Shown here: piece by piece, positions 39,074-53,370 of the stretch
How the letters are laid out: the number at the start of each line of letters is the position of its first letter
Numbering within the stretch: the first letter of the stretch is position 1
Assembly: GCA_947502835.1 (NCBI GenBank)
Contig: CANNBJ010000002.1
Span: 397,850-461,849 of the forward strand
Length of the DNA: 64,000 nt
Source: Bdellovibrionales bacterium
GTDB taxonomy: Bacteria > Bdellovibrionota > UBA1018 > CAIMNF01
Direction: 5' to 3'
The notes under the pieces: model-generated
The model's database searches: none
Seen by the model: only the letters and a program-made list of their open reading frames with translations
Told to the model about the DNA's origin: nothing
Program-made: the position numbers and the translations under genes

Positions 39074-39112
39074 AAATTTTCGAAAACAACTAACACAAGG
39101 AGGCGTAGTACT

Positions 39113-40453
39113 ATGTTCGAAATTCAAGAAGAGAAAACACTGGGAGCAAAAATCAAGGTAGTCGGAGTGGGTGGCGGCGGCTGTAACGCGGTCAATACCA
39201 TGATCCGCGCAGGCCTGAGTGGAGTCGAGTTCATCGCTGCCAATACAGACAAGCAAGTGCTCGAGAGTGTTCTTGCTCCGCATAAAATTGCAATCGGTCA
39301 AGAGCTGACCCGTGGACTTGGCGCGGGTGCGAATCCGGATGTCGGCCGTAAGGCAGCCCTCGAGGATTACGCTCAGATTTCTGAATTGCTCACGGGTTCG
39401 GACATGGTGTTCATCACGGCAGGGATGGGCGGTGGAACCGGAACCGGAGCAGCCCCGGTTTTCGCGAAGATCGCAAAAGAAGTGGGTGCCCTCACGGTGG
39501 GTGTTGTGACCAAGCCGTTCCTGTTTGAGGGTAAAAAGCGGATGAAGCAGGCTCTTGAAGGCATCAATCAGCTTCGCGAGAGCGTGGATTCCTTGATTAT
39601 TATTCCGAACAACCGTCTTCTGAACATCTCGGGAGCATCGCTTTCGATGATGCAGGCGTTTGGAAAAGCCGATGAAGTGCTCCTGAACGCGGTTCAGGGG
39701 ATCTCGGATCTCATCAATCACACAGGCTACATCAACAGCGACTTTGCCGACGTCCGCACCATCATGGAGAATAAGGGGCTTGCTCTCATGGGGATCGGAT
39801 TCGGTCAGGGAGATCACCGCGCGGTGGAAGCTGCGACCTCGGCGATCAGCTCGCCCCTCCTCGAGGACATCTCCATCAACGGAGCAACCGGGATCATCAT
39901 CAATATCACCGGTGGTTCGAACCTTACCCTTCACGAGGTCAATGAAGCGACATCCATCATTCAGGAAGCAGCCGATGAAGATGCTCAAATCATTTTCGGA
40001 ACCGTGATCGATGAGGCATTGAACGACAAGGTGAAGGTCACTGTGATTGCTACGGGACTCGGGTGTGATGCTTCCGCGCTTCTGACCGAGATGAAGAATG
40101 CGAATCCAGTTCGCGCCAATACGCCTCCTCCTGTACCAAGCCAGGTGAATCAGGCGATTCAAACTCTGAATGATTCTTCTGCCAATAAGAATCAGGTGAA
40201 TCAGGAGACCCAGCAAAATGCGAATCAGCTGAATCAGTTGAGCTCAGCCGCGGCGCCGAACGCCAACAATGCTGGTTCTTCGAATTCTGGAATGAATGGG
40301 AATCAGAATTCCAATTCGGCGGGTGCCGAATCCCCCGAGCTCGCACGGGCCCGGGAGATCGCAAAGCGCCTCGGGATGATCAATCAGGACGGGCAGGATT
40401 TCGATGTTCCGGCTTTCATGAGGCGCGGATCGGAAAACACAAATAACGCCTGA
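39113..40453 (+). CDS. ftsZ: cell division GTPase FtsZ
   Basis: GGGTGTG tubulin signature. A long N/Q-rich linker precedes the conserved C-terminal peptide [10 protein letters not shown]. Confidence 0.95.
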
Positions 40454-40478
40454 TTTCCGAAAATAGGGTAGTGTGACG

Positions 40479-40512
40479 AGTGCCCCGGTGAGTTTCATCG
40501 GGGCACTTTTTT
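40479..40512 (+). terminator. rho-independent terminator downstream of ftsZ
   Basis: 9-bp GC-rich stem AGTGCCCCG / CGGGGCACT with an 11-nt loop, followed by TTTTTT. Confidence 0.6.
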
Positions 40513-40527
40513 ATGGGGAGGTCCAAG

Positions 40528-41415
40528 ATGAGTAAACTCAGCCCGGGCGCGACGTTTCTTTCTCAAAAACTGAAATCCACTACCCAAGCGATCCCGGCAT
40601 TCCATGTGGTGCTCGGTTCCGGCTTCAAGGACTCCATTGTGGATGGAGGTCTCCCCGATTCTTTTCGTGTGTGTGGCGAGCTCGATTTCAAAGAGGTTCC
40701 CGGCCTCCACTCTTCCACGGCGCCGGGACATACTGGAAAATATGTATTCGTGGAGCACCAGAAGTCGGGCAGGGCCGGAATTCTTCAGGTGGGTCGGCTC
40801 CATGGATATGAAGGGCTAGACCCGCGTGAGGTGGTTCAGACGGTCATGATCAGCCGGGAGCTCGGAGTGAAGGACTATTTTCTCACCAATGCAGCGGGAG
40901 GAATGGATCCCGCCCACCGGGTCGGAGATGTCATGGTGATTGCGGATCAGATCAACCTTACGGGCCGCAACCCGCTCTATGGGCCAAATCCTTCCAAACC
41001 GGATGGTACGGAGTGGGGCCCGAGGTTTCAGGATTTGACCCTGCTCTTTGACGCACGCATTCGGGAATCCCTTCGTGGGATGCTGGAGGGGCAAGCTCTT
41101 CGGGTGCACGAGGGCGTGTATATGGGGGTTCAGGGACCTGCATTCGAAACCCCGGCGGAAATTCGTTTTTTTCAGCGGGTCGGATGCCACGCGGTGGGAA
41201 TGTCCACGGTCTGGGAGACGGTGGCGCTGAAACATTCGGGAGCAAGGGTTTGCGGGATCTCGCTCATCAGCAACCTGGCCGCAGGAATGGCTCTTGGAGC
41301 TGATGGAAAGCCGGAGGAGCTGGATCATTTTGCCATTCTGGATGCCTGCAAGGCTTCATCCCGTGCGATTCTCCGTGCGATCCTTTTGACCGTGGAGAGT
41401 CTCCCCGCGCATTGA
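40528..41415 (+). CDS. purine nucleoside phosphorylase (PNP/MTAP family I)
   Basis: PNP-family motifs (VVLGSGF, TAPGHTGK, GMSTVWE). A GGGGAGG RBS lies 6 nt upstream of the ATG. Confidence 0.85.
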   Translation: MSKLSPGATFLSQKLKSTTQAIPAFHVVLGSGFKDSIVDGGLPDSFRVCGELDFKEVPGLHSSTAPGHTGKYVFVEHQKSGRAGILQVGRLHGYEGLDPREVVQTVMISRELGVKDYFLTNAAGGMDPAHRVGDVMVIADQINLTGRNPLYGPNPSKPDGTEWGPRFQDLTLLFDARIRESLRGMLEGQALRVHEGVYMGVQGPAFETPAEIRFFQRVGCHAVGMSTVWETVALKHSGARVCGISLISNLAAGMALGADGKPEELDHFAILDACKASSRAILRAILLTVESLPAH

Positions 41416-41583
41416 TTGCCGAGCAGTGCAACGAGTATTGTTGATGTATCGCGATTGAACGAATGTTCAGGATTTATACGGATCTTTTGAGTTGTCCATG
41501 GTGGATTCACGCCCAAAACCCCCTTCCGGGCGGCCTTGGCCTCATGGCATTCAACTTGCTCTACTCCAGATACGGAGATGTTT

Positions 41584-42066
41584 ATGATGAGTTTCATGAA
41601 TAAAAAGGGTTCACTTTTTTCAGCGCTGGTACCTGCTTTCCTTTTGGTCGGGTGTGGAATGATGGGCCTTTCCGGAAGTTACAACGTCACCCAACAGGGC
41701 GGGCAGTTTCAGCAGAATCCGGCGTGTTCCCAGATCATGCTTTCCATCAACCAGAGCGGGAATCAAATTTCAGGTCAGGGACAGAATCAATGTTTCACCC
41801 AGACCCTTCAGGGAACCTCGGCCAATAACGGACAGGCGAATGTCACCCTCACGCTCATGCCCTCCGGCTCCGGCCAAACAAATTGGATGAACTCCCCGGG
41901 CAATACGTACAACCCCTACAACAGTGGCTTCCAGAACATGGGGGGCATGGGGTGCACCTACCAAGGAATGTTGATCATTTCGGGAAACACGATTTCCGGA
42001 AGTTTGAATCCGACCGGAAACTGCATGAATCAGGGGATGATTACCCTGAACGGCACCCGAATTTGA
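41584..42066 (+). CDS. Q/N/G-rich lipoprotein
   Basis: Lipobox LLVGC, a low-complexity Q/N/G/S-rich mature region, and 6 conserved-looking Cys. Confidence 0.45.
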   Translation: MMSFMNKKGSLFSALVPAFLLVGCGMMGLSGSYNVTQQGGQFQQNPACSQIMLSINQSGNQISGQGQNQCFTQTLQGTSANNGQANVTLTLMPSGSGQTNWMNSPGNTYNPYNSGFQNMGGMGCTYQGMLIISGNTISGSLNPTGNCMNQGMITLNGTRI

Positions 42067-42081
42067 TGCTATGATCCGGAA

Positions 42082-43365
42082 ATGATCCGGATTCCAACGC
42101 TTCCCTCAGCCGAACAATCTTTTTTCTACCGGAATGGACGTCTCACGGTGGATGGAGTCGCTCTGGATGACCTCGTGGAGAGGTTCGGATCGCCTCTGTA
42201 CGTCTACTCGGGAGCCAGCATTCGAACGGCCTATGCGGCCATTACCCAATCCTTGCGAGGGCTCCCTCTTCAAGTTTGTTATGCGGTGAAGGCGAATTCA
42301 AATCTCCATATTTTGAAATTGCTGTCGAGCCTTGGTGCCGGCTGTGATCTTGTCTCCTATGGAGAGTGGCGTCGAGCCGAATTGGCCAAAGTTCCGCAAG
42401 GGCGGAGGGTTTTGTCCGGGGTGGCCAAAACCGCAAAAGAACTCGAGGCTCTTTTCAAGCACAAATTCGCCGGGGTTTATTCGATCCACGTGGAATCCGC
42501 GATGGAATTCGAACTGATCATCCTGATGGCCAATGCCTTGAAGCGGGAGGTGAGGGTCGCGTTCCGATACAATCCGGACGTGGATGCGAGAACCCTGGAT
42601 AAAATCTCAACCGGACGCAAGAAAGACAAGTTCGGACTCACGCGCGAGGAGATCCTCGATCTCGCAATCACCTATGGAGATGATGACTTTGTCAGGATCG
42701 AGGGACTCAGCATCCACATTGGCAGTCAGATCACAAACCTGAAACCCTATGATCATGCCTTTGAAAGACTTGCCGATTTGAAAACAGAGCTCGAATCCCA
42801 TCTGGGCAGGGCGCTGTCCTATGTCGATCTGGGAGGCGGGATCGGGGTCCGGTATCGGGATGAACATCCCATTTCTTTGGCGCGGTACGCGAGCCTCGTG
42901 AAGAAGCATTTCAGGAAAGTACCGAGAATCCTGATCGAGCCCGGGCGAAGTCTGCTTGCGAGTGCGGGAGCCTTGGTCAGCGAAGTTGTGTATTCCAAAG
43001 AGCGTGGAGCCAATCGTACCGTAATTCTCGATGCCGGGATGAATGATCTCGTGAGGCCCGCACTGTATGATGCGTACCATGAAATCGCCCCGCTGAAGCA
43101 GGATGGTTCAAAACCTGTGAAATGGGATGTGGTCGGTGGAATCTGCGAGAGCACGGACTATTTTGCAAAAAGCCGCATGCTCGCACTTGAGGGACTTCCC
43201 GGTGAGCGTGTTGCCATCCTCTCGAGCGGCGCTTATGGGTTCTCCATGAGCAGCACCTACAACTCCCGTCCGAGAGTGGCTGAGGTATTGGTGGATCGGG
43301 GGAAAGTAAAACTGATCCGAAAGAGAGAGACATTCCAGGACCTCGTAAAACACGAAAATTTTTGA
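42082..43365 (+). CDS. lysA: diaminopimelate decarboxylase
   Basis: PLP-dependent fold III decarboxylase (CYAVKANSN, GGGIG, ...EPGR). Confidence 0.9.
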   Translation: MIRIPTLPSAEQSFFYRNGRLTVDGVALDDLVERFGSPLYVYSGASIRTAYAAITQSLRGLPLQVCYAVKANSNLHILKLLSSLGAGCDLVSYGEWRRAELAKVPQGRRVLSGVAKTAKELEALFKHKFAGVYSIHVESAMEFELIILMANALKREVRVAFRYNPDVDARTLDKISTGRKKDKFGLTREEILDLAITYGDDDFVRIEGLSIHIGSQITNLKPYDHAFERLADLKTELESHLGRALSYVDLGGGIGVRYRDEHPISLARYASLVKKHFRKVPRILIEPGRSLLASAGALVSEVVYSKERGANRTVILDAGMNDLVRPALYDAYHEIAPLKQDGSKPVKWDVVGGICESTDYFAKSRMLALEGLPGERVAILSSGAYGFSMSSTYNSRPRVAEVLVDRGKVKLIRKRETFQDLVKHENF

Positions 43366-43383
43366 GTTGAGTGGGTGCGCGCG

Positions 43384-43403
43384 GAGGGACTTGCCCAAGC
43401 TCC
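43384..43403 (-). repeat. 20-nt direct repeat of the tRNA-Leu 3' end (possible att-site remnant)
   Basis: GGTGCGCGCGGAGGGACTTG at 43384..43403 is identical to 43533..43552, which is the 3' acceptor/T-arm of the adjacent tRNA-Leu. The repeat lies 3' of the tRNA. Confidence 0.6.
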
Positions 43404-43531
43404 AAGAACTCCATCCTTTTCAAGTTCCCTTTTTAGGAAATTGAGCAAGGTGAGCGAGCGAGATGTATGTGAGAATACTTCGAGCGAGCGAATCCGAAGC
43501 GAGATGATGTAAAAAGGGAATTTCAAAAGAA

Positions 43532-43616
43532 TGGTGCGCGCGGAGGGACTTGAACCCCCACACCTTACGGCACCAGATCCTAAGTCTGGCGTGTCTGCCA
43601 ATTTCACCACGCGCGC
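43532..43616 (-). tRNA. tRNA-Leu (anticodon TAG)
   Basis: 85-nt type II tRNA with acceptor GCGCGCG/CGCGCGC, anticodon loop CTTAGGA, a long variable arm, and an encoded CCA. Confidence 0.8.
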
Positions 43617-43685
43617 ACGAAGAGATGTCCCACACTTTAATCTGTCACATCTTCAAAATCCAGTGTAAAAATGAACCCTTGAATC

Positions 43686-44621
43686 ATGAAAACCCTCTTC
43701 GGTTCGGCACAATCGAACAGTGAATTCACGGCTGGATCCGTCGTTGCCATCGGCAATTTTGACGGGATCCACCTGGGGCACCAGTCCATCCTTGAGACAG
43801 CCAGGGAGCATGCTCGTGAGCTCCATTTGCCCCTGGTGGTGTATACCTTCAATCCACATCCGACCCTCGAGCTGAAACCGCAATCCAATCTCAAGCTTCT
43901 GATGACCTACGAGGAAAAACGCGAGCTTCTCCCTGGATTTGGGGTGGATTATTGCGTTGAAGAACGATTTGATTCGGCATTTGCGGCACTCGGAGCGCGC
44001 GAATTTTTTGAGCAGGTGCTTCTTGCCTCGCTTCACGCAAAAGTGATTGTGGTGGGTGACAACTTCACCTTCGGTCGGAAACGCGAAGGTTCCATTCCTG
44101 TGCTCCGTGAGTTTTGCCATGATGCCTCGGTCACTCTTTGCGCCATCCCGCCGCTCGAGTGGGACGGCGGCGTAATCTCAAGCTCCAGGATTCGGGAATG
44201 CCTGGCCCAAGGCCGGGTTTCAGAAGCTGAAAAAATGCTCGGTAGGCCGTTTTTTTATCGATCCGAGGTGATTCACGGCGATAAGCGCGGAAGGACTTTG
44301 GGGTTTCCGACGGCAAATATGAAGTGTCAGGAAAAGTTCCCTCTCAGGACAGGGGTCTATGCCACGTCAGTGCTTTGGCATGGTTCCCTTTACCCGAGTG
44401 TGACGAATGTCGGTGTGCGTCCCACCTTCGATTCCATGGATCTGAGAGTGGAAACCCATATCCTCGACCAGAGCTTCGAATTGTACGGAGAGCACCTCGA
44501 GGTGAGGTTTCATGAACACATTCGCGAGGAGCGGAAGTTCGCCTCGATTGCAGACCTCACGGCTCAAATTGCGAGCGATACCATTTTGGCGCGGAAGCTC
44601 TTAAGTTCTCGGAATTTTTAA
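43686..44621 (+). CDS. ribF: bifunctional riboflavin kinase/FMN adenylyltransferase
   Basis: AIGNFDGIHLGHQSIL adenylyltransferase motif plus a C-terminal riboflavin kinase domain. Confidence 0.9.
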   Translation: MKTLFGSAQSNSEFTAGSVVAIGNFDGIHLGHQSILETAREHARELHLPLVVYTFNPHPTLELKPQSNLKLLMTYEEKRELLPGFGVDYCVEERFDSAFAALGAREFFEQVLLASLHAKVIVVGDNFTFGRKREGSIPVLREFCHDASVTLCAIPPLEWDGGVISSSRIRECLAQGRVSEAEKMLGRPFFYRSEVIHGDKRGRTLGFPTANMKCQEKFPLRTGVYATSVLWHGSLYPSVTNVGVRPTFDSMDLRVETHILDQSFELYGEHLEVRFHEHIREERKFASIADLTAQIASDTILARKLLSSRNF

Positions 44622-44663
44622 ATATATTTGCTCTTCCCCGGGACTTCCTCCAAAATTGGAGAT

Positions 44664-46373
44664 ATGTCTCGAAAACTCGTCGAGCTTTTATACAAAGAGC
44701 GACTCATCACCCAGTCCCAGTACTCTGAAGCCGAAGTGATCTTCAGGTCAAACGGGGATGCCATCCGGCAGTTCATTGAACGAAAGCAACTCTCGGAGAG
44801 CAAGCTGCTTCAGTTCCTCGCGCAAAAATTCTCGATGACAGCACTTCCGAATCTGACCAAGTTCGAGATCAAGCCGGACATCATTGCCATGGTCAATCCC
44901 GATCTCGCGCGAAAATCTCAATGCATCCCCATCCGGTACGACCGCGGGATCCTTGTGGTTGCGATCCCCGATCCGACCCAGATCAACCTTCTCGATGATC
45001 TGCGCTTTGCCACCAAACTGAACGTGGAGGCGGTGCTTACGGGCTTCGCCTCGTTTGATCTTTGTTTCATGAAGCATTATGCCGGAACCCAGACCATGGG
45101 CCGGGCGCTTGAGCAATTCAAGAAGGATGCGCAGATCGCAGGAAACAAGGAAGAATCCATTCAATTCATCGACCAGCACCAGGTGCACGAAGTCGGGTCG
45201 GATTCCGCCGAGGATGCTCCGATCATTTCCGTTGTGAACGGAATCCTCACCGAAGCTGTCCGCCTCGGCGCGAGTGACATTCACGTCGAACCCTACGAGA
45301 AAGACTTCCGGGTGCGCTTCCGGATGGATGGAACCCTGGTCGACATCACCCACATTCCGATGGAAATGAGGCGCGCAGTTGTTGCACGTCTCAAGATCAT
45401 GTCCAGGATGGACATCGGGGAATCCCGAGTGCCTCAGGATGGCAGGATCAAGATCAAGATTGGAATCAAGGAGGTCGACTTCCGGGTGAATTCTCTTCCG
45501 ACTCTCTTTGGCGAGAAGGTGGTTCTCCGGATTCTCTCGAAAGGAAACCTGAAGCTTGATTTGCGCACACTCGGGTTTGAGGAAGCACAGCTTGAGATTT
45601 TTCGGCGCGGAATCGCGCAGCCAAACGGAATGGTCCTGGTGACCGGACCGACCGGAAGTGGAAAAACCACCACTCTTTATTCCGCACTCATGGAGTTGAA
45701 CAAGGTCAGTGACAACCTCTCGACCGTGGAAGATCCGGTGGAATACAACCTGGAGGGAATCAATCAAGTCCAGGTGAACAAGGACATTGGTCTCAGTTTT
45801 GCAGCAGTACTGAGAGCCCTCCTTCGTCAGGACCCGGATACGGTGCTGGTCGGAGAGATTCGGGACTTTGAGACGGGCGAGGTTGCCGTACAGGCGGCAC
45901 TGACAGGGCACCTGGTTCTGTCGACTCTTCATACAAACGACACAGTTTCCACCATCACCCGGATGGTGAACATGGGGATTGAGCCGTTTCTCGTGACGGC
46001 ATCTGTGAACACCATCGTTGCACAGCGCCTCCTTCGAACCCTTTGCAAGGCGTGTCGGCAGCAAGTGAAGGTTCCAGCCGAGAAGATCGATGGTCTCGGC
46101 ATTTCGAAAATCGCGAGCTCCGGCAGTTTCTTCCAGTCGAAGGGATGCAAGGAATGCAACATGACCGGCTACAAGGGCCGTGTTGCCATTTACGAGGTTC
46201 TCGAGTTCCATTCGGATCTGAAGGAGATGGTATTGGCGGGGAATACGGCCATTGAAATCAAGAGGGCTGCGATCCAGAACTTCGGATTGCAGACGCTCAG
46301 GGTTTCAGCACTGAAGAAAGCAATGTCGGGACTCACTTCCATTGAAGAAGCCGTGTCGATGACGAGTGAATAG
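44664..46373 (+). CDS. pilB: type IV pilus assembly ATPase PilB (GspE family)
   Basis: T2SSE_N domain, Walker A GPTGSGKTT, Asp/His boxes, and a tetracysteine motif (CKACRQ...CKECNMTGY). Followed directly by pilT and pilC. Confidence 0.9.
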   Translation: MSRKLVELLYKERLITQSQYSEAEVIFRSNGDAIRQFIERKQLSESKLLQFLAQKFSMTALPNLTKFEIKPDIIAMVNPDLARKSQCIPIRYDRGILVVAIPDPTQINLLDDLRFATKLNVEAVLTGFASFDLCFMKHYAGTQTMGRALEQFKKDAQIAGNKEESIQFIDQHQVHEVGSDSAEDAPIISVVNGILTEAVRLGASDIHVEPYEKDFRVRFRMDGTLVDITHIPMEMRRAVVARLKIMSRMDIGESRVPQDGRIKIKIGIKEVDFRVNSLPTLFGEKVVLRILSKGNLKLDLRTLGFEEAQLEIFRRGIAQPNGMVLVTGPTGSGKTTTLYSALMELNKVSDNLSTVEDPVEYNLEGINQVQVNKDIGLSFAAVLRALLRQDPDTVLVGEIRDFETGEVAVQAALTGHLVLSTLHTNDTVSTITRMVNMGIEPFLVTASVNTIVAQRLLRTLCKACRQQVKVPAEKIDGLGISKIASSGSFFQSKGCKECNMTGYKGRVAIYEVLEFHSDLKEMVLAGNTAIEIKRAAIQNFGLQTLRVSALKKAMSGLTSIEEAVSMTSE

Positions 46374-46396
46374 GGTTTTGCAGGGAGGCAGGAAAA

Positions 46397-47458
46397 ATGG
46401 GAAAACTAACGCTGATTGCATTGCTGAGGGCCATGGTTGAGCAGGATGCATCCGATCTTCACATCACCAATCAAAGTCCTCCCCAGTTCAGGATTCATGG
46501 AAAATTGGCAAAGGCGAAGACGGATCCCCTCACTCCCGAGTCCATCAAGGATCTGGTCTATGAGATTCTGACCGAGTCCCAGAAAAAAACCTTCGAGGCG
46601 AATCACGAACTGGACTTCTCGTTTGGCGTCAAGGATGTCGCTCGATTCAGGGGGAATCTCTTCTTTCAGCGAGGGAGCATGGGCGCGGTCTTCCGGAAGA
46701 TTCCGGTCACGATCCCGGACTTTGATTCGCTTCGTTTGCCTGAAACGATCAAGAAAATCGTACGGCAGCCAAATGGCTTGTTTCTCGTGACCGGACCTAC
46801 GGGATCGGGTAAGTCTACCTCGCTCGCGGCCATCATCGACTTCATCAACCGAGAGGACAATGGGCACATTCTGACAGTTGAGGATCCGATCGAGTTTACC
46901 CATCCGCATCGAAACTGCATCGTGAATCAGCGGGAAGTCGGAACGGATTCACACACATTCCATGATGCCTTAAAGCACGCGCTTCGCCAGGACCCGGACT
47001 TCATTCTGGTCGGGGAATTGCGGGATCTTGAAACGATCGAGATGGCGCTCACCGCCGCCGAAACCGGCCATATGGTTTTTGCGACCATGCACACCAATAG
47101 CGCGGTTCAGACGATTGCGAGGGTTGTGAACGTGTTTCCACCGCACCAACAGGCCCAGATCCGACAGCTTCTCGCTGCGACCCTGGCAGGAGTGATGACC
47201 CAGCAGCTGGTTCCGAATTCGGGAAGGCCCGGTCGTTCGGCAGCCTATGAGCTCATGGTGCCGACTCTTGCGATTCGAAATCTCATCCGCGAGGACAAGA
47301 TGCATCAGGTGTACGGGGTGATGCAATCAGGACAAGCCGGCACAGGAATGCAAACGATGAATCAGGCCCTTGCGGATCTGGTTCGAAAAGGAAACCTTAC
47401 CAAAGCCGATGCGATGGGATACAGCCTTCTCCCAGAAGAGCTCATGAAGATGGTATGA
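46397..47458 (+). CDS. pilT: twitching motility ATPase PilT
   Basis: GPTGSGKST Walker A and the PilT-specific AIRNLIRE motif. 353 aa. Confidence 0.93.
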   Translation: MGKLTLIALLRAMVEQDASDLHITNQSPPQFRIHGKLAKAKTDPLTPESIKDLVYEILTESQKKTFEANHELDFSFGVKDVARFRGNLFFQRGSMGAVFRKIPVTIPDFDSLRLPETIKKIVRQPNGLFLVTGPTGSGKSTSLAAIIDFINREDNGHILTVEDPIEFTHPHRNCIVNQREVGTDSHTFHDALKHALRQDPDFILVGELRDLETIEMALTAAETGHMVFATMHTNSAVQTIARVVNVFPPHQQAQIRQLLAATLAGVMTQQLVPNSGRPGRSAAYELMVPTLAIRNLIREDKMHQVYGVMQSGQAGTGMQTMNQALADLVRKGNLTKADAMGYSLLPEELMKMV

Positions 47459-47469
47459 GGAACGAGTGA

Positions 47470-48702
47470 ATGGCTGAGTACCAGTATGTAGCCCAGGACG
47501 GGGCCGGAAAAAAAGTGGAGGGACGCCTGGAGGCGAACAACGAAGGTGAGCTTCGGATGCTCCTCCGGAGCAAGGGCCTTCGTCCTACACGAATCTCAAA
47601 GGTGGCTCTCGGGCAGATGGATGTCGGTGCCACACTGAAGAGAATGATGGGAGGCGCTGCATCCCTCCCTCCTGATCGTCTGATGAACTTTGTAAAGCAA
47701 TTGCAGACCATGATTTCTTCCGGTGTTCCGCTGGTCCAGGCAATCGAGCTCTTTCTGGACCAGGAATCCCATCCGTACATGAAGATGATTCTCACAACCT
47801 TCCGGGACCGGCTGAATGGAGGAAGTTTTCTTTGGGAATGCATGTCCGCCTATCCGGATGTCTTTGAGCGTGTGTTCGTGGCGCTCGTTCGCGCGGGGGA
47901 GTCATCCGGAACCCTCGATGTGATGTTGAAGCGATCCGGAAAGTACCTGGAGAACTCCTATCGATTGAGGCGTCTGATCAAAAGCTCAATGAACTACCCG
48001 ATTATCGTAACTGCGATTGCGGTCGGGGTGATCACGCTGATGTTGACTCTGGTGATCCCTAAGTTTGAAGAGATGATTGTTTCGGGTGGGGGTGAGCTTC
48101 CCTTGCCGACCAAATTTGTGATTGACCTCTCCCATGGGTTGATCAATCACTTTTTCACAATTGTGCTTGCGCTCGGTGCTGGAGTGTATTTGATTCGCCA
48201 GTATGTCAAAACCGACGAGGGAAAAGCGGTACTTCAAAACATTGCAATGAAGCTGCCGGTCATGGGGCCCTTGATCATTCAAAGCGGGGTTGCGCGTTTC
48301 GCACGAACCATGGGCACACTTCTTTCCTCCGGGGTTCCGATTGTCGATGCTCTTGAGATTTGCAAGGACGCGGCATCTCACATCGCCTACGAGGATGCGA
48401 TTGGGTTGATGAAGCGCGAGGTGGAGCTCGGTGCGTCTTTCAGCAACGCAATGCTCAGGCAACAGGCTTTGTTTCCGAAAATGGCGGTCCAGATGACGGT
48501 TGTGGGTGAAAACACCGGAAATATGGACAAGATGCTCGAGAAGGTGGCTGACTTTTATGAAGAGGAGGTTGAAACCTCCATTCAGGGAATGTTGAAACTG
48601 ATTGAGCCGTTCATGTTGGTTTTCATGGGTGGAATTGTCGGTGGACTCCTGATAGCAATGTATTTGCCTATTTTCCAGATGGCGGGGAATACCGGGAACT
48701 GA
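47470..48702 (+). CDS. pilC: type IV pilus platform protein PilC (GspF family)
   Basis: Two GspF repeats and three TM segments. Sits in the pilB-pilT-pilC synteny. Confidence 0.9.
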   Translation: MAEYQYVAQDGAGKKVEGRLEANNEGELRMLLRSKGLRPTRISKVALGQMDVGATLKRMMGGAASLPPDRLMNFVKQLQTMISSGVPLVQAIELFLDQESHPYMKMILTTFRDRLNGGSFLWECMSAYPDVFERVFVALVRAGESSGTLDVMLKRSGKYLENSYRLRRLIKSSMNYPIIVTAIAVGVITLMLTLVIPKFEEMIVSGGGELPLPTKFVIDLSHGLINHFFTIVLALGAGVYLIRQYVKTDEGKAVLQNIAMKLPVMGPLIIQSGVARFARTMGTLLSSGVPIVDALEICKDAASHIAYEDAIGLMKREVELGASFSNAMLRQQALFPKMAVQMTVVGENTGNMDKMLEKVADFYEEEVETSIQGMLKLIEPFMLVFMGGIVGGLLIAMYLPIFQMAGNTGN

Positions 48703-48743
48703 TCTGAATCTGATTCAAGCTCTAATGTGCAAGGAGATCGAAG

Positions 48744-49688
48744 ATGGCGGCGATTGATCAAATCAAGAGACCAATACTCGGCAGATCAGTGAAGATCGAG
48801 GCGTTAAAGCAAATGATCACCCGAGTAGCGCCTGCGAAAACAAACGTTCTGATCATCGGAGAAAGCGGAACCGGGAAGGAGCTTGTTGCCCGGGCACTTC
48901 ATGAATTGAGCCCGGTGAAGGATGGCCCCTTTGTTGCGGTCAATTGCGGCGCGATCCCCGAGAGCTTGATCGAAAGCGAGCTTTTTGGGCATAAGAAGGG
49001 GAGTTTCACGGGGGCGATCGCGGATAAGCCAGGGCTCTTTGAGGCGGCCGATCGAGGCACGCTCTTCTTGGATGAGGTGGGTGAGCTCCCGACCTCCATG
49101 CAGGTCAAACTTTTGAGGGCTCTTCAGGATCGTGCGATCCGCAGAGTTGGCGGAAATGATACGATCAAGATTGATGTGCGCATCGTCGCTGCCACCAACA
49201 AGAATCTCGAAGAAGGTGTAAAGAAGGGTTCATTTCGGGAGGACCTGTACTACAGATTGAATGTGATCATGCTTGAGACTCCGCCGCTTCGGGAGCGGGT
49301 GGGGGATGTTGAGGAGTTGATCAAGGTTTTCTTTGAGCGCTTCAATGAAAAGCAAAAACGAGGTCTTTCGGGTCTTTCCCAAGACGCACTCTCGGTGCTT
49401 CTTTCCCATCAGTGGCCGGGAAATATCCGCGAGCTTGAGAATGTGATGGAGCGTGTGGTGACTCTTGAGTCGGGATCTGAAATCCAAGTTTCAACGCTTC
49501 CCCCCGAGCTGGTCCTTTCGGTGAGACGTGCCCAAGGGCTGCCGCGTGAACTCACGCTTCGGGCGAACTTTGCGCTCGGGCCCATCGACTTGGATGCGGT
49601 TCTTGGAGAAGTGCGAGCCTTTTACGAGCGTGAGGCACTCATTTTTGCGAAAAATGATTTGGCAGCCGCAAAAATCCTCTTCAAATAA
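48744..49688 (+). CDS. sigma-54-dependent activator, AAA+ core only (PilR-like, no receiver, truncated HTH)
   Basis: GESGTGKE Walker A, the GAFTGA-type loop variant ESELFGHKKGSFTGA, and ELENVMER. It starts 12 aa before the AAA+ core. It ends ...NDLAAAKILFK, lacking the Fis-type recognition helix. Confidence 0.8.
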   Translation: MAAIDQIKRPILGRSVKIEALKQMITRVAPAKTNVLIIGESGTGKELVARALHELSPVKDGPFVAVNCGAIPESLIESELFGHKKGSFTGAIADKPGLFEAADRGTLFLDEVGELPTSMQVKLLRALQDRAIRRVGGNDTIKIDVRIVAATNKNLEEGVKKGSFREDLYYRLNVIMLETPPLRERVGDVEELIKVFFERFNEKQKRGLSGLSQDALSVLLSHQWPGNIRELENVMERVVTLESGSEIQVSTLPPELVLSVRRAQGLPRELTLRANFALGPIDLDAVLGEVRAFYEREALIFAKNDLAAAKILFK

Positions 49689-49721
49689 AAAAACCCCCCG
49701 CCAAGTTCTTTGGCGAGGGGT
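49687..49721 (-). terminator. rho-independent terminator of pilA (hairpin shared with the convergent activator gene)
   Basis: Read on the minus strand: CCCCTCGCCAAA-GAAC-TTGGCGGGGGG followed by TTTTTTT. Confidence 0.55.
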
Positions 49722-49739
49722 TGAACTATAACCAACGGA

Positions 49740-50399
49740 TCAGATGCCAGGTTGGCTATTTACCAAAGCGCCGACCTCATTGATTGTCCAAATATCGGGC
49801 AGGTTGGCCCCCCCATTCCTGCCTCCAACGTTTCCTACGCCGCCGATGACGTATTGAGTAGCACTAGTAATTCGACCCTCTGCGCCGAGGGCGGTGCTAG
49901 GTCCGTTAAGAAGACTAGCCACAGGCTGAGGTGCGGTTGCCGGTGCTACAAACGAGTTTGCTGCCCACTGAACGTTTGCGGCAACGCATACTTCTGTAGC
50001 AGGGCCAGCACCACCACCTTGGGGCCAGCCTGCAAAACCATCGCACCGAGTATTCCCGGCAGGTCCACAAAAGTTAGCGGTCAAAACAGCGCCATTAAAC
50101 CCAATGGCGTATCGTGTTTGTCCCGCGCTGGGCTGAAAGCCAGCCTGCTGAATGCAACCAGAGAGGCCGTTTTCAGCACGAAATGATTCCACCGCAGTCC
50201 TGGCAGCGGCAAGGGCAAGCTTCACTTCCGACTGGCGGGACCTCGCCATAAAACTATTGAAACGCGGAATTGCAAGTGTTGCGAGAATCCCGATGATGGC
50301 AACCACCACCATGAGTTCCACCAAAGTGAAACCGGCCTGTGAGCGCAAAACTGATCCCGCACCCCTGGATTTATTTTTGATCACATTACTAATTTTCAT
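49740..50399 (-). CDS. pilA: type IV major pilin PilA with a 23-aa leader
   Basis: [23 protein letters not shown] then the [22 protein letters not shown] prepilin site. A GAGGGG RBS lies 6 nt upstream of the ATG at 50399. The C-terminal region is G/N/A-rich with 4 Cys. Confidence 0.85.
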
Positions 50400-50457
50400 A
50401 TTCACCCCTCGAGAGATTTCTTTTGCTCTCACTTTTGGATAGGATAAGGGACACCGG

Positions 50458-51138
50458 ATGAATTTGCGACAGATTTTTCATTTGCCTTGCCTGATTGCGG
50501 TTTTTTTTTGCGTCGGTTTTCATTTTTCAATTTCCGGTGTTGAGTTTGAATGTGCGAAGGATGTTTCTGACACAGGGTACGAATTGACACCCCGATTTGT
50601 TCGTTTCATCAGTGGTGGTTTGTGGCCTGTGATTGTCGATTGGGAATGGCTGAGATCACTTCAGGAATTGGGGGAGATGACCTACTCTAAAGAGACCAGC
50701 GCGGTCATGGAACAATCCTATCGTTTGATTCACGGACTTGATCCATTCTTCTTTGAGTCTTACGAGCAAGGATCGATCGGATTCATGGTTCTCCTCAAGG
50801 AGCCTGACGCTGCCTTGAGAATCCTTGACCGTGCGATCAATGTTTTTGAGAGCGGTAGTTTTCCAAAGGAGCACTGGACGCACGCATTTTTGCTTTACCT
50901 GAATCGCGCATCCGTCCATGGGTACCAAAAACAGGACTTCGCCTCTGCAAAACGTGATTTTTTGAAAGCGAGCGAAATCCCGGGAGCCCCTTCTTATCTG
51001 CAGTCCATGAAGACTTGGCTTGCAGGCGAGGATTCGGAGAGGGTCCTTGCGGTCCGAATGCTTAAGATCTTGGCCTCAAATACGAAGGATCCAGTATTGA
51101 AGGCGTTCTATGAGGAGGAGAAAAAACGTTATGAATAG
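50458..51138 (+). CDS. secreted hypothetical protein in the pilG position of a Myxococcus-type pil cluster
   Basis: Signal/TM N-terminus [19 protein letters not shown]. It is the first gene of a three-gene overlapping unit with the ABC ATPase and permease. Confidence 0.45.
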
Positions 51139-51817
51139 TGCTCGGTTTCCTGCGGTCGAATTGAAGGATGTGGAGTGGGGAGTGGCAGGAAAGAATATTC
51201 TCAAGTCTTGCTCCGTCAAGGTTGGCTTCGGGGAATGTGTTGGAGTCATTGGGCACAATGGAGCCGGAAAGACCACATTGTTTCAAATCTTGATGGGATT
51301 CAAGATTCCCAGCCGCGGTGACCTGTTTCTTAATGGCGTGTCCTCGCTTAATCCGAAGTCGAGAATTGGTGTTGCTTATGTTCCGGAACGTCCTTATTTC
51401 AACGTCGAGCAAACCTTTATGGATTTTCTCTCGCTTCACTGCGCACTTGCAGGCCTAACTGCCGGAAAAAAGATGTACGAGATCAAGCGGGTGTCGCTCG
51501 AAGTGGGCTTGCAGGATCATCTTGTTCAAAAAATGAAATCCTTTTCAAAGGGGATGCTTCAGAAAGCGTCTTTGGCCCAGGCTGCGATCGGAGACCCTTC
51601 AATCATGATTCTGGATGAGCCGATGAGCGGCTTGGACCCGGAGTCACGTGATGTTCTGCGAACTCTGATCCAGTCGTGGAGATCGTCCGGTAAGACGATC
51701 CTCTTTTCTTCCCACGCGATCGAAGATCTCGAGGCGCTTGCGAATCGGGTGATTGCTCTCTCGGCAGGGGAAATTCGTTTTGATGGATCATTAGAGGAAT
51801 GGAGGAGTAAAAGATGA
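51131..51817 (+). CDS. ABC transporter ATP-binding protein (pilH-like position)
   Basis: Walker A GHNGAGKTTLF, signature MKSFSKGMLQKASLAQA, and Walker B IMILDEPMSGLD. Confidence 0.8.
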   Translation: MNSARFPAVELKDVEWGVAGKNILKSCSVKVGFGECVGVIGHNGAGKTTLFQILMGFKIPSRGDLFLNGVSSLNPKSRIGVAYVPERPYFNVEQTFMDFLSLHCALAGLTAGKKMYEIKRVSLEVGLQDHLVQKMKSFSKGMLQKASLAQAAIGDPSIMILDEPMSGLDPESRDVLRTLIQSWRSSGKTILFSSHAIEDLEALANRVIALSAGEIRFDGSLEEWRSKR

Positions 51818-52602
51818 GCCGGGATTCGTGGATTGTTTCGCAGATACGTTCCTTTTTCGCGATTGCGATCTACACTTTCCGGAACCTGCTCCGCGAGAAG
51901 ATCCTCTATACACTTTTCTTTGTCGCCATCTTTCTTCTCATGATAGGGTATCTCGCTGCATTGTTGGTTTGGGGCCGTCAGGATAGAATCCTGCTTCATT
52001 TTGGAACCTTTGTGAATGCTCTTGCGGTTCTTGCTGTTTCGCTTGGGGCCGGATCCAGCGTTTTGCGAACTGAAATTGAGAACCGGAGCATTTATCTCCT
52101 TCTTGCGCGCCCTGTGCACCGAGGAATCCTTCTGGTTTCAAAGTGGGCCGGAATTTCACTCTTCACGCTCGCTTATTCCACGCTTCTGATGTGTGTTGTG
52201 GGTGCGGGCATTCTTTTCTTGGGCGGTCCTGTCAAGGGGGCTTTCTTCCAAAGTTTCGGCCTGGTCTTTGTCGAGTCCTTGCTTGCATCCGCCGCCTCGA
52301 TTTTTCTTTCCTTTTTCCTGAGACCTGGACTTTCCGCTGTGACCTGCCTTGCCTATCTGTTTTTAGGCCACAATCACGACCAAATTTCGTATTTGATCAA
52401 AAAAGGGGCAGCGATCCCCGGGGTTCTTGTGGTCTTGCGCGGGATTACCCCCGATCTGTCGCTTCTTTTGATGGATACGCGGGTTTTCTATGATCAGCCT
52501 CTTGCTTCCTCGGAATTCATTCTTCGTGCCGGGTACGGCTTTGGTTGGGCCTTCATGTTTGTTTTGTTTGGCAACGCGGTCTTTTTCAGGAAAAATCTCT
52601 GA
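51814..52602 (+). CDS. ABC-2-type permease (pilI-like position)
   Basis: Six predicted TM helices. The start overlaps the ATPase stop (ATGA). Confidence 0.6.
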   Translation: MSRDSWIVSQIRSFFAIAIYTFRNLLREKILYTLFFVAIFLLMIGYLAALLVWGRQDRILLHFGTFVNALAVLAVSLGAGSSVLRTEIENRSIYLLLARPVHRGILLVSKWAGISLFTLAYSTLLMCVVGAGILFLGGPVKGAFFQSFGLVFVESLLASAASIFLSFFLRPGLSAVTCLAYLFLGHNHDQISYLIKKGAAIPGVLVVLRGITPDLSLLLMDTRVFYDQPLASSEFILRAGYGFGWAFMFVLFGNAVFFRKNL

Positions 52603-53370
52603 ATGCTGAAGTCCACTCTTGTCATTCTTTTTGGATTGATCATTGGAAGCTTCCTGAATGTGGTGATTCACCGTTTGCCGCTTGATCAGTCCGTGGTGAA
52701 GCCCGCGAGCCGGTGCCCTTCCTGCGGAACGGGGCTCAAGTGGTTTCACAATGTGCCCTTGGTGAGCTACCTCTTGCTTCGCGGAAAGTGCGCGGCTTGC
52801 GGAAATCCCATCTCGTGGCGGTATCCGCTCGTGGAGTTCCTGACTGCTTTTTTGTTCTGGGCAAGTTTTCGTGATCTCCCTTTCGGTGTGTTCGAGTTCA
52901 TCTCCCAGTTCAGGATCTGGTTGTTCATTGCTCTTGGTGTTGCGATTGCATTCATCGACCTTGATCACCGGATCATTCCGGATGAGTTGAGTCTCGGAGG
53001 CTGGCTGATCGGGGCCCTCACTGCATATTGGGATTACCGTGCGGGGCTCCCCTCGCTTTTGATTGCCTCTGTAGCAGGATTCGGGTTTTTCTTCCTCTTT
53101 GCCCTTCTCTACGAAAAGGTGACCGGGCGCGCGGGCCTCGGAGGAGGAGACATCAAATTCATGGGGACGATCGGGGTATTTTTGGGCTTCGGAGGCATCT
53201 GGTCGTCCATCATGATCAGTTCGGTTTTGGGCAGCGTGGTCGGGATCGCAATTGCGAAGCTGAATCGATCAGAACAGGCATTGCGTACTGCGATTCCCTA
53301 CGGCCCTTTTCTGGTGGTTGGAGCTCTGGTAGAACTCTTCTTCGAGGTGTCACGATGGATCATCCCCTAG
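52603..53370 (+). CDS. pilD: prepilin peptidase / N-methyltransferase PilD
   Basis: DiS_P_DiS N-domain with CPSCG...CAACG zinc tetracysteine, and the A24 catalytic Asp context (IDLDHRIIPDEL, GGGDIKFMG). Confidence 0.9.
   Translation: MLKSTLVILFGLIIGSFLNVVIHRLPLDQSVVKPASRCPSCGTGLKWFHNVPLVSYLLLRGKCAACGNPISWRYPLVEFLTAFLFWASFRDLPFGVFEFISQFRIWLFIALGVAIAFIDLDHRIIPDELSLGGWLIGALTAYWDYRAGLPSLLIASVAGFGFFFLFALLYEKVTGRAGLGGGDIKFMGTIGVFLGFGGIWSSIMISSVLGSVVGIAIAKLNRSEQALRTAIPYGPFLVVGALVELFFEVSRWIIP

What the first reader, a model, noticed from the sequence alone, without database searches (positions are those of the whole stretch)
48744..49688. Sigma-54 activator reduced to its AAA+ core in the pilR position (no PilS, no receiver, clipped HTH)
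In Myxococcus-type pil loci, a PilS/PilR two-component pair sits between pilC and pilA and drives sigma-54-dependent pilA transcription.

Here a single 314-aa gene occupies that position:
- It starts 12 residues before the sigma-54 AAA+ domain, so it has no receiver domain.
- It has an intact Walker A and an ESELFGHKKGSFTGA sigma-54 contact loop.
- It terminates at ...NDLAAAKILFK, inside what would be the Fis-type HTH. The recognition helix is missing.
- Its stop is immediately followed by the pilA terminator.
- No histidine kinase is nearby.

This is either a constitutive, DNA-binding-independent enhancer-binding protein or a decaying regulator. I could not find a -24/-12 (TGGCAC-N5-TTGC) element in the 58-bp pilA upstream region.
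Basis: partly seen in the sequence, partly recalled or inferred. Interest (0 to 1): 0.6.

Follow-up and report, generated by a model that had tools for sequence, protein, structure and literature searches.

The report
PilR reduced to its ATPase core
The gene is real and conserved: a PilR-type sigma-54 activator in a type IV pilus cluster of uncultured Bdellovibrionales that has lost its kinase partner, receiver domain and DNA-reading helix but kept a working-looking ATPase core, an architecture a 2020 review knew from one protein only (FleT).

Summary
ORF 48744-49688 (+) encodes 314 aa: a sigma-54 AAA+ domain (res 11-177) plus lid (183-258). It has no receiver and no HTH_8 match, and it ends after the first HTH helix. 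No kinase lies nearby.

It is neither an error nor a decaying gene. The identical protein occurs on 5 independent contigs. More than 75 homologue clusters (64-94% identity, 295-326 aa) stop at the same point. All ATPase and sigma-54-contact residues are invariant, and pN is 0.10-0.25 against saturated pS of 0.72-0.86.

Synteny and a tree show a PilR descendant. Outgroups carry pilB-pilT-pilC-pilS-pilR-pilA with strong -24/-12 promoters before pilA. A Bdellovibrionales lineage lost PilS and the receiver, and then eroded the HTH several times.

pilA lacks a sigma-54 promoter in all six core-only loci. Well-placed -24/-12 promoters do exist in these genomes, before secreted-protein genes (window 41545-41560, conserved in a relative).

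Best reading: an enhancer-independent, sensor-less sigma-54 activator expressed with pilBTC, acting from solution or through a partner. FleT is the closest known analogue. rpoN and the targets could not be checked.

The parts
48744..49688 (+). Gene for the 314-aa AAA+-core-only sigma-54 activator (PilR descendant); the stop TAA is at 49686-49688
48731..48736 (+). AAGGAG ribosome-binding site 7 nt before the ATG. An in-frame TAA at 48723-48725 excludes a longer N-terminus
   Evidence: sequence read directly
48774..49274 (+). Sigma54_activat AAA+ domain (res 11-177). It holds Walker A at 48858-48881, the GSFTGA sigma-54 contact loop at 48999-49016 and Walker B D110/E111
   Evidence: these residues are invariant; Foldseek hits FleQ, LuxO and NtrC1 AAA+ domains at TM 0.92-0.94
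49290..49517 (+). AAA+ lid domain (res 183-258), including the sensor II motif GNIRELEN
49590..49685 (+). Remnant of the Fis-type DNA-binding domain: two predicted helices (res 283-301 and 306-313) matching helix B and the first HTH helix. The recognition helix is absent
   Evidence: alignment; AF2 model (block pLDDT 83-89); tail pN 0.18-0.44 against pS about 0.8
49692..49722 (-). Intrinsic terminator hairpin of pilA. Its T-tail overlaps the activator's stop codon, so the two genes converge
49740..50399 (-). pilA: a 219-aa type IV pilin with N_methyl motif, convergent with the activator gene
50400..50457 (-). The 58-bp pilA-pilG intergenic region. It has no -24/-12 element (best 4.1 bits). A -10-like box TATCCT at 50446..50441 is conserved as TATCCT or TATAAT in close relatives (L087, L088)
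44664..48702 (+). pilB (44664-46373), pilT (46397-47458) and pilC (47470-48702), directly upstream. In relatives the activator gene abuts or overlaps the pilC stop, so it is probably the last gene of this operon
50458..53370 (+). Four genes labelled here by position as pilG-like (no Pfam hit), pilH-like (ABC ATPase), pilI-like (membrane protein) and pilD (prepilin peptidase). They continue the Myxococcus-type cluster, followed by pilMNOPQ
   Evidence: the pilG/H/I names come from my recollection of the Myxococcus cluster
41545..41560 (+). Candidate sigma-54 promoter TGGCATTCAACTTGCT, 27 nt before the start of lipoprotein gene 41587-42066. It is evidence that sigma-54 is in use here and is a possible target

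Best explanation
The gene encodes a functional, conserved descendant of the pilus response regulator PilR. It has been stripped to the sigma-54-activating AAA+ ATPase (core plus lid) with a short two-helix tail. It has no phosphorylation input (no PilS, no receiver) and cannot read an enhancer (no recognition helix). It most likely forms hexamers in a concentration-dependent way, as isolated bEBP cores such as PspF(1-275) do. It would then contact sigma-54 holoenzyme directly from solution through its GSFTGA loop, or after recruitment by a partner protein, and use ATP to open sigma-54 promoters. Because it sits at the end of pilB-pilT-pilC, its dose would follow expression of the pilus motor operon. 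Its ancestral target pilA appears to have moved to a non-sigma-54 promoter, so its present targets are other -24/-12 promoters, for example those before secreted or lipoprotein genes. What is shown: the architecture, its conservation, its PilR ancestry, the absence of a pilA -24/-12 element, and the presence of well-placed -24/-12 promoters in clade genomes. What is inferred: activity from solution, control by dose, and the identity of the targets.
For: - Architecture: AAA+ core plus lid only. The AF2 model has mean pLDDT 86.6 and matches FleQ, LuxO and NtrC1 AAA+ domains at TM 0.92-0.94.
- Not an artefact: the identical protein is on 5 contigs from separate assemblies. More than 75 clusters of 295-326 aa end at the same place.
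- Functional residues invariant across 31 and 43 sequences: Walker A K45, N67, G86-S-F-T-G-A91, D110/E111, T151/N152, R165, R171 and R229.
- Selection: pN 0.10-0.25 against pS 0.72-0.86 for the whole gene. Where dS is computable, dN/dS is 0.05-0.09.
- PilR ancestry: the gene order ribF-pilBTC-EBP-pilA-pilGHI-pilD-pilMNOPQ is conserved. The best receiver-bearing relatives lie in pilBTC-pilS-pilR-pilA clusters. Receiver-less proteins form one clade nested among these PilRs.
- Targets: with the same matrix, pilA has a 12.5-18-bit -24/-12 promoter in 9 of 12 PilR-type outgroup loci, but only 0-4 bits in six core-only loci.
- Sigma-54 in use: TGGCAT-N5-TTGCT is kept 25-27 nt before the orthologous lipoprotein gene in the window and in L087, while the flanks have diverged. 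L083 has TGGCACAGCTGTTGCT 26 nt before a secreted-protein gene, straight after a terminator.
- Precedent: FlgR and CtcC lack a DNA-binding domain, FlgR is described as enhancer-independent, and FleT lacks both domains (PMC7175178, PMC3162934).
Against: - rpoN could not be checked in this genome, and none lies in the 64 kb window.
- No promoter has been linked to this protein.
- The 15.2-bit promoter score alone is within what shuffled sequence gives (maxima up to 18.8 bits). Its support rests on position and conservation in only one relative.
- Some bEBP cores need their receiver or DNA to oligomerise, so activity without both is not guaranteed.
- The conserved tail may point to a partner-dependent rather than a free-acting mechanism.
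- The sigma-54 matrix is my own approximation of the published consensus.
Confidence: 0.6

Rival explanations
1. FleT-like co-activator. The core-only protein is inactive or unspecific alone. It co-assembles into mixed hexamers with a second, DNA-binding bEBP encoded elsewhere, which supplies promoter targeting and signal input.
For: [quoted passage not shown] The two-helix tail is conserved (F276, G279, V290, F293 and A298 invariant) and could be an interaction surface.
Against: There is no second bEBP in the window or within +-10 kb in nine related loci. The tree places its origin with PilR. The pilus context differs from FleT's flagellar one.
Confidence: 0.2
2. PspF/HrpS-style control. The core is intrinsically active but is held in check by a trans-acting anti-activator, possibly a pilus component or unassembled pilin. 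That protein would replace the lost PilS input.
For: Group 4 bEBPs without a regulatory domain are controlled by protein binding in trans (PMC7175178). The gene is fixed inside the pilus cluster next to conserved genes of unknown function (226-aa and 187-aa products with no Pfam hit).
Against: No PspA, HrpV or NifL-like gene was recognised nearby. The idea is purely inferential.
Confidence: 0.12
3. A decaying remnant or an assembly/sequencing artefact of a full PilR.
For: It has lost PilS, the receiver, the recognition helix and apparently its pilA target promoter. Relatives show several degenerate tails.
Against: The identical protein is on 5 contigs. The stop position is conserved in more than 75 clusters. 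All catalytic and sigma-54-contact residues are invariant. pN is far below the saturated pS. No downstream frame has HTH coding potential.
Confidence: 0.03
4. The AAA+ core has been put to a use outside transcription, for example acting on pilus proteins, and no longer activates sigma-54.
For: It is fixed in the pilus operon although no pil gene has a sigma-54 promoter.
Against: The GSFTGA loop, whose known role is to contact sigma-54, is invariant across the clade. Sigma-54 promoters exist in these genomes.
Confidence: 0.05

Closest known systems
FleT of Rhodobacter (Cereibacter) sphaeroides
   Same: It is a bEBP consisting of the AAA+ core alone, with no regulatory domain and no HTH. A 2020 review calls it the only known bEBP lacking both (PMC7175178; also PMC3162934, PMC10084136).
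   Different: FleT belongs to a flagellar hierarchy and is thought to act with FleQ. This protein is PilR-derived, sits in a type IV pilus cluster, keeps a two-helix HTH stump, and has no identified partner. Its sequence relationship to FleT was not tested.
PilR of PilS/PilR systems (Myxococcus, Geobacter, Bdellovibrio bacteriovorus)
   Same: It has the same position after pilB-pilT-pilC and next to pilA. PilRs are its closest receiver-bearing relatives. B. bacteriovorus has a pilB-pilT1-pilC-pilS-pilR operon (PMC4237445).
   Different: It has no PilS, no receiver and no recognition helix. pilA is inverted and has no -24/-12 promoter.
FlgR (Helicobacter pylori) and CtcC (Chlamydia), group 5 bEBPs
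   Same: [quoted passage not shown]
   Different: They keep a phosphorylatable receiver domain and a cognate kinase. This protein has neither.
PspF and HrpR/HrpS, group 4 bEBPs
   Same: They have no N-terminal regulatory domain. The truncated PspF(1-275) core is a standard DNA-independent activator in vitro (my own knowledge).
   Different: The native proteins keep an HTH and are controlled by PspA or HrpV. No such gene was seen here.

Membership tests
Bacterial enhancer-binding protein (sigma-54 activator AAA+, PF00158) | Clade 6 AAA+ core with Walker A/B, arginine fingers and sensor II, plus lid | tested here: met
   PF00158 at 9e-73 and AAA_lid_14 at 1e-24. K45, D110/E111, R165, R171 and R229 are invariant. 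Foldseek TM is 0.92-0.94 to FleQ, LuxO and NtrC1 cores.
Bacterial enhancer-binding protein (sigma-54 activator AAA+, PF00158) | GAFTGA-type L1 loop that contacts sigma-54 | tested here: met
   GSFTGA at residues 86-91 is invariant in 43 sequences. Serine at position 2 is a replacement seen in LevR of the Bacilli (PMC3162934).
Bacterial enhancer-binding protein (sigma-54 activator AAA+, PF00158) | ATP-dependent activation of sigma-54 holoenzyme, with rpoN present in the genome | not testable with these tools
   There is no rpoN in the window. The evidence is indirect only: conserved -24/-12 promoters, and rpoN in B. bacteriovorus and Bacteriovorax (PMC3464611, PMC3526173).
PilR (PilS/PilR two-component response regulator) | N-terminal receiver domain | tested here: not met
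   There is no Response_reg hit, and an upstream in-frame stop fixes the start. Outgroup PilRs have the domain.
PilR (PilS/PilR two-component response regulator) | Adjacent PilS histidine kinase | tested here: not met
   pilC is followed directly by this gene. PilS (6TM_PilS, PAS, HisKA, HATPase_c) is present in outgroups L016 and L006.
PilR (PilS/PilR two-component response regulator) | C-terminal Fis-type HTH (HTH_8) | tested here: not met
   There is no HTH_8 hit, and the protein ends before the recognition helix.
PilR (PilS/PilR two-component response regulator) | Descent from PilR: same locus position, and PilRs as nearest full-length relatives | tested here: met
   Synteny. NJ tree of the AAA+ core (no bootstrap).
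PilR (PilS/PilR two-component response regulator) | Sigma-54 (-24/-12) promoter at pilA | tested here: not met
   Best scores are 0-4 bits in six core-only loci, against 12.5-18 bits in 9 of 12 outgroup loci. The matrix is my own approximation.
FleT-type minimal bEBP | Lacks both the regulatory and the DNA-binding domain | tested here: met
FleT-type minimal bEBP | Works as a hetero-oligomer with a DNA-binding bEBP (FleQ) | not testable with these tools
   There is no second bEBP in the window or in the flanks of nine loci.
FleT-type minimal bEBP | Common descent with FleT | not tested
   No FleT sequence was available. The tree places this protein with PilRs, so an independent origin is likely.
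Group 5 bEBPs (FlgR, CtcC) | Receiver domain present, DNA-binding domain absent | tested here: not met
   The DNA-binding domain is absent, but so is the receiver.
Group 4 bEBPs (PspF, HrpR/S) | No regulatory domain, HTH present, control by a trans-acting protein | tested here: not met
   The HTH is absent. No PspA or HrpV-like neighbour was recognised. The receiver-less sister proteins with HTH (L004, L085, L089, L090) do fit this architecture.

The most novel reading that the evidence does not exclude
A PilR-derived AAA+ core has become a sensor-less, enhancer-independent global activator of a sigma-54 regulon of secreted and envelope proteins in a Bdellovibrionales lineage. Its output would be set by the pilus machinery itself. 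That could happen through co-expression with pilBTC, or through direct sequestration by a pilus component that replaces PilS, with the conserved two-helix stump as the docking site. It would be an independently evolved second family of minimal bEBPs and a new way of coupling pilus status to transcription.
Probability: 0.15. Interest if true: 0.75.

Novelty: new variant of a known kind. Interest (0 to 1): 0.5.

Why it matters
- A 2020 review lists FleT as the only bEBP lacking both the regulatory and the DNA-binding domain. Here a second family appears with the same architecture, probably of independent (PilR) origin. It is abundant in metagenomes, with more than 75 clusters at 90% identity.
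- The data preserve evolutionary steps: full PilS/PilR, then receiver-less with HTH, then core only, with the HTH eroding several times. This gives a natural series for asking what a bEBP needs in order to work without an enhancer or a sensor.
- The finding suggests that pilin transcription in this lineage has left sigma-54 control while the activator was kept for something else.
- Public annotations of these proteins ('two-component response regulator PilR', 'Fis family') are misleading, because the proteins have neither a receiver nor a Fis-type HTH.

Tried and rejected
Only L003 and L004 were close. It was still useful as a source of outgroup PilR loci.
- The 1.8-billion-protein representative search was dominated by tandem-bEBP fusions and added little.
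- The strict sigma-70 consensus scan found no promoter in 48600-50700. The pilA promoter type therefore stays unassigned apart from a conserved -10-like box.
- The 15.2-bit score of the 41545 promoter is not significant on its own against shuffles. I rely on its position and conservation instead.
- I looked for FleQ-type c-di-GMP residues using the alignment. Only generic arginines match, and the positions aligned with FleQ's N and E are A51 and V here. I did not pursue it.
- Read-through or frameshift at the A-rich stop gives no HTH-like peptide in any frame.
- rpoN and other bEBPs were sought by motif in the window and not found. The rest of the genome could not be reached.
- Rfam and tRNA scans of 40000-52000 found only a tRNA-Leu.

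Full report

Yes. ORF 48744..49688 (+) encodes 314 aa.

- **N-terminus.** An in-frame TAA at 48723 and an AAGGAG site at 48731-48736 fix the start 41 nt after the pilC stop, so no receiver domain can be hidden upstream.
- **Domains.** Pfam finds the Sigma-54 interaction domain on residues 11-177 (9e-73) and the AAA+ lid on 183-258. It finds no Response_reg and no HTH_8. NCBIfam matches cover only the central part of NifA, NtrC, PspF and similar models, all far below their cut-offs.
- **Motifs.** Walker A GESGTGKE and ESELFGHKKGSFTGA are present.
- **C-terminus.** In alignment with relatives that keep HTH_8, the protein ends at '...AAAKILFK', where they continue 'GITFRSIRYRLKKLG'. It keeps helix B and the first HTH helix but not the recognition helix.
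- **Downstream.** The 51 nt before the convergent pilA stop hold the pilA terminator hairpin (49722..49692, minus strand). No frame there encodes HTH-like sequence.
- **Kinase.** No histidine kinase or receiver is called within +-10 kb. Crude H-box, G-box, receiver and RpoN-box motifs are absent from all 64 kb.

**2. Artefact or decay?**

Neither.

- The identical protein is encoded on five contigs from separate assemblies (sources NCBI, Logan, ENA and JGI).
- The database holds more than 75 clusters at 64-94% identity and 295-326 aa. None has an HTH_8 hit, and all end within a few codons of the same point.
- Across 43 of them the following are invariant: Walker A K45, N67, the whole G86-S-F-T-G-A91 loop, Walker B D110/E111, T151/N152, R165, R171 and sensor II R229.
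- Between six loci, synonymous sites are saturated (pS 0.72-0.86) while pN is 0.10-0.25. The two computable dN/dS values are 0.05 and 0.09.
- The residual tail (residues 259-314) is looser (pN 0.18-0.44) but still constrained.
- AlphaFold gives mean pLDDT 86.6, with two confident C-terminal helices at 283-301 and 306-313. The core superposes on FleQ, LuxO and NtrC1 AAA+ domains at TM 0.92-0.94 (sequence matches).

**3. What is it derived from?**

The window carries ftsA-ftsZ, PNP, a lipoprotein gene, lysA, tRNA-Leu, ribF, pilB, pilT, pilC, this gene, pilA (minus strand), three genes in the pilG/H/I positions, pilD, a hypothetical gene, pilMNOPQ, a TPR gene and efp.

- **Core-only relatives.** The segment from ribF to efp is conserved in L083, L084, L086, L087 and L088. 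The activator gene usually abuts or overlaps the pilC stop.
- **Receiver-less relatives with HTH.** Proteins of 347-361 aa that still have HTH_8 occupy the same slot in L085, L089, L090 and L004.
- **Receiver-bearing relatives.** The best-scoring ones in named genomes (Lujinxingia, a Bacteriovoracaceae MAG, Geobacteraceae, Desulfuromonadales) sit in pilB-pilT-pilC-[kinase]-EBP-pilA clusters. Three of these activators checked with Pfam (L005, L006, L016) are Response_reg + AAA+ + HTH_8. The gap gene in L016 is PilS (6TM_PilS, PAS, HisKA, HATPase_c); in L006 it is a PAS/HisKA/HATPase_c kinase in the same position.
- **Cultivated reference.** B. bacteriovorus HD100 likewise has a pilB-pilT1-pilC-pilS-pilR operon (PMC4237445).
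- **Tree.** A neighbour-joining tree of the AAA+ core puts all receiver-less proteins in one clade nested among these PilRs. Truncated or degenerate HTH tails appear in several sub-clades (no bootstrap, so the number of losses is approximate).

The order of events is therefore: PilS and the receiver were lost once, and the DNA-binding domain then eroded repeatedly.

**4. What does it act on?**

I scored -24/-12 elements with a matrix approximating the published consensus TGGCACG-N4-TTGCW. The matrix is my own approximation.

- **Positive control.** pilA downstream of receiver-bearing PilR has a 12.5-18-bit site in 9 of 12 loci.
- **Core-only loci.** In all six, the best pilA site scores 0-4 bits, and no pil gene has a conserved site.
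- **Receiver-less loci with HTH.** These also lack a convincing pilA site (4-10.7 bits).
- **pilA promoter.** Close relatives share a -10-like TATCCT or TATAAT box about 40 nt before pilA. The strict sigma-70 scan calls nothing.

pilA therefore seems to have left sigma-54 control in this lineage. Sigma-54 itself still appears to be in use:

- TGGCATTCAACTTGCT at 41545-41560 lies 27 nt before lipoprotein gene 41587-42066, with a GGAG ribosome-binding site in between.
- The orthologous gene in L087 has TGGCATCTAAATTGCT 25 nt upstream. Both hexamers are identical, while the spacer and flanks have diverged.
- L083 has TGGCACAGCTGTTGCT (17 bits) 26 nt before a secreted 446-aa gene, directly after a terminator.

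Score alone is not significant: shuffled sequence reaches 18.8 bits. The argument rests on placement and conservation. rpoN is not in the window and the rest of the genome was out of reach. rpoN does exist in B. bacteriovorus (bd0843, PMC3464611) and in Bacteriovorax marinus (PMC3526173).

**5. Mechanism**

The most likely reading (about 0.6) is an enhancer-independent activator.

- The core forms hexamers as its concentration rises.
- It engages sigma-54 holoenzyme from solution through the GSFTGA loop and opens -24/-12 promoters.
- Its dose is set by the pilBTC operon rather than by phosphorylation.

The rivals are:

- a FleT-like subunit of mixed hexamers with a DNA-binding bEBP (0.2);
- a PspF/HrpS-like core restrained by a trans-acting protein, perhaps from the pilus cluster (0.12);
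- a role outside transcription (0.05);
- decay or artefact (0.03).

The invariant sigma-54 contact loop argues against the last two. The conserved two-helix stump keeps the partner models open.

**6. Comparison with what is known**

- bEBPs without a DNA-binding domain (FlgR, CtcC) and without a regulatory domain (PspF, HrpR/S) are established.
- FleT is described as the only known bEBP lacking both (PMC7175178 in 2020; also PMC3162934 and PMC10084136).
- This protein shares FleT's architecture. It differs in ancestry (PilR), context (type IV pili) and its retained HTH stump. No partner is known.
- It fails three of the defining features of PilR itself (receiver, PilS, HTH) and should not be annotated as a response regulator or a Fis-family regulator, as public records do.

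**7. Verdict**

The 'DNA-binding-independent' option is supported. 'Constitutive' and the link to pilA are not supported.
- Novelty: a new variant of a known kind. It is a second, probably independently evolved, minimal bEBP family with a traceable loss series.
- Interest: moderate (0.5). It is limited by the lack of any direct evidence on activity, targets or rpoN.

Noticed in passing
window 41545-41560 (+), before gene 41587-42066: A well-placed sigma-54-type promoter, TGGCATTCAACTTGCT, lies 27 nt before a Q/N/G-rich lipoprotein gene with no Pfam hit. Both hexamers are identical in the orthologous region of L087 (2898-2913) although the flanks have diverged.
   Followed up: partly
L083 3183-3168 (-): A 17-bit -24/-12 element, TGGCACAGCTGTTGCT, lies 26 nt before a secreted 446-aa protein of unknown function. 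It follows a terminator directly and sits next to the pil cluster of another core-only genome.
   Followed up: partly
L004, L005, L006, L010, L013, L016, L020, L025, L026, L034, L062, L065, L076, L085, L089, L090 compared with window, L083, L084, L086-L088: Strong pilA sigma-54 promoters accompany receiver-bearing PilR in 9 of 12 loci. They are missing wherever PilS and the receiver are lost, whether or not the HTH survives. Loss of the sensor and loss of the pilA -24/-12 element go together.
   Followed up: partly
homologues P0075-P0077, P0086, P0088-P0092, P0097, P0098, P0107, P0111, P0112, P0120: Receiver-less PilR relatives show several different degenerate or shortened HTH tails in separate tree branches. 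This suggests repeated, independent erosion of DNA binding.
   Followed up: partly
window 50441-50446 (-), with L087 and L088: A -10-like box (TATCCT, or TATAAT in L088) preceded by CCCT is conserved about 40 nt before pilA in close relatives. It is a candidate non-sigma-54 pilA promoter. The strict sigma-70 scan did not call it.
   Followed up: partly
window 49740-50399 (-): pilA is inverted relative to most of the PilS/PilR-type outgroup loci (L006 is an exception). It converges on the activator gene and shares one hairpin with it. The pilin is large (219 aa) with a roughly 23-residue leader before the FTLVELMVV motif.
   Followed up: no
window 50458-52602 (+): A 226-aa protein with no Pfam hit, an ABC ATPase and a membrane protein follow pilA, as pilG/H/I do in Myxococcus (from memory). 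The trio is conserved in all related loci, and the membrane protein hits ABC-2 families in several of them.
   Followed up: no
window 46397-47458 (+): The cluster PilT has an intact Walker A (GPTGSGKST). The operon-encoded PilT1 of B. bacteriovorus is reported to lack one (PMC4237445).
   Followed up: no
window 43532-43616 (-): A tRNA-Leu gene lies between lysA and ribF. The ORFs listed across it are translation shadows.
   Followed up: yes
window 44748-46211 (-) and 38918-40216 (-): Very long antisense ORFs (487 and 432 aa) run opposite pilB and ftsZ. They are most likely non-coding shadows of the sense genes.
   Followed up: no
public annotations of P0010, P0073 and others: Members of the core-only family are labelled 'two-component system response regulator PilR' or 'sigma-54-dependent Fis family transcriptional regulator', although they lack both a receiver and an HTH_8 match.
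   Followed up: yes
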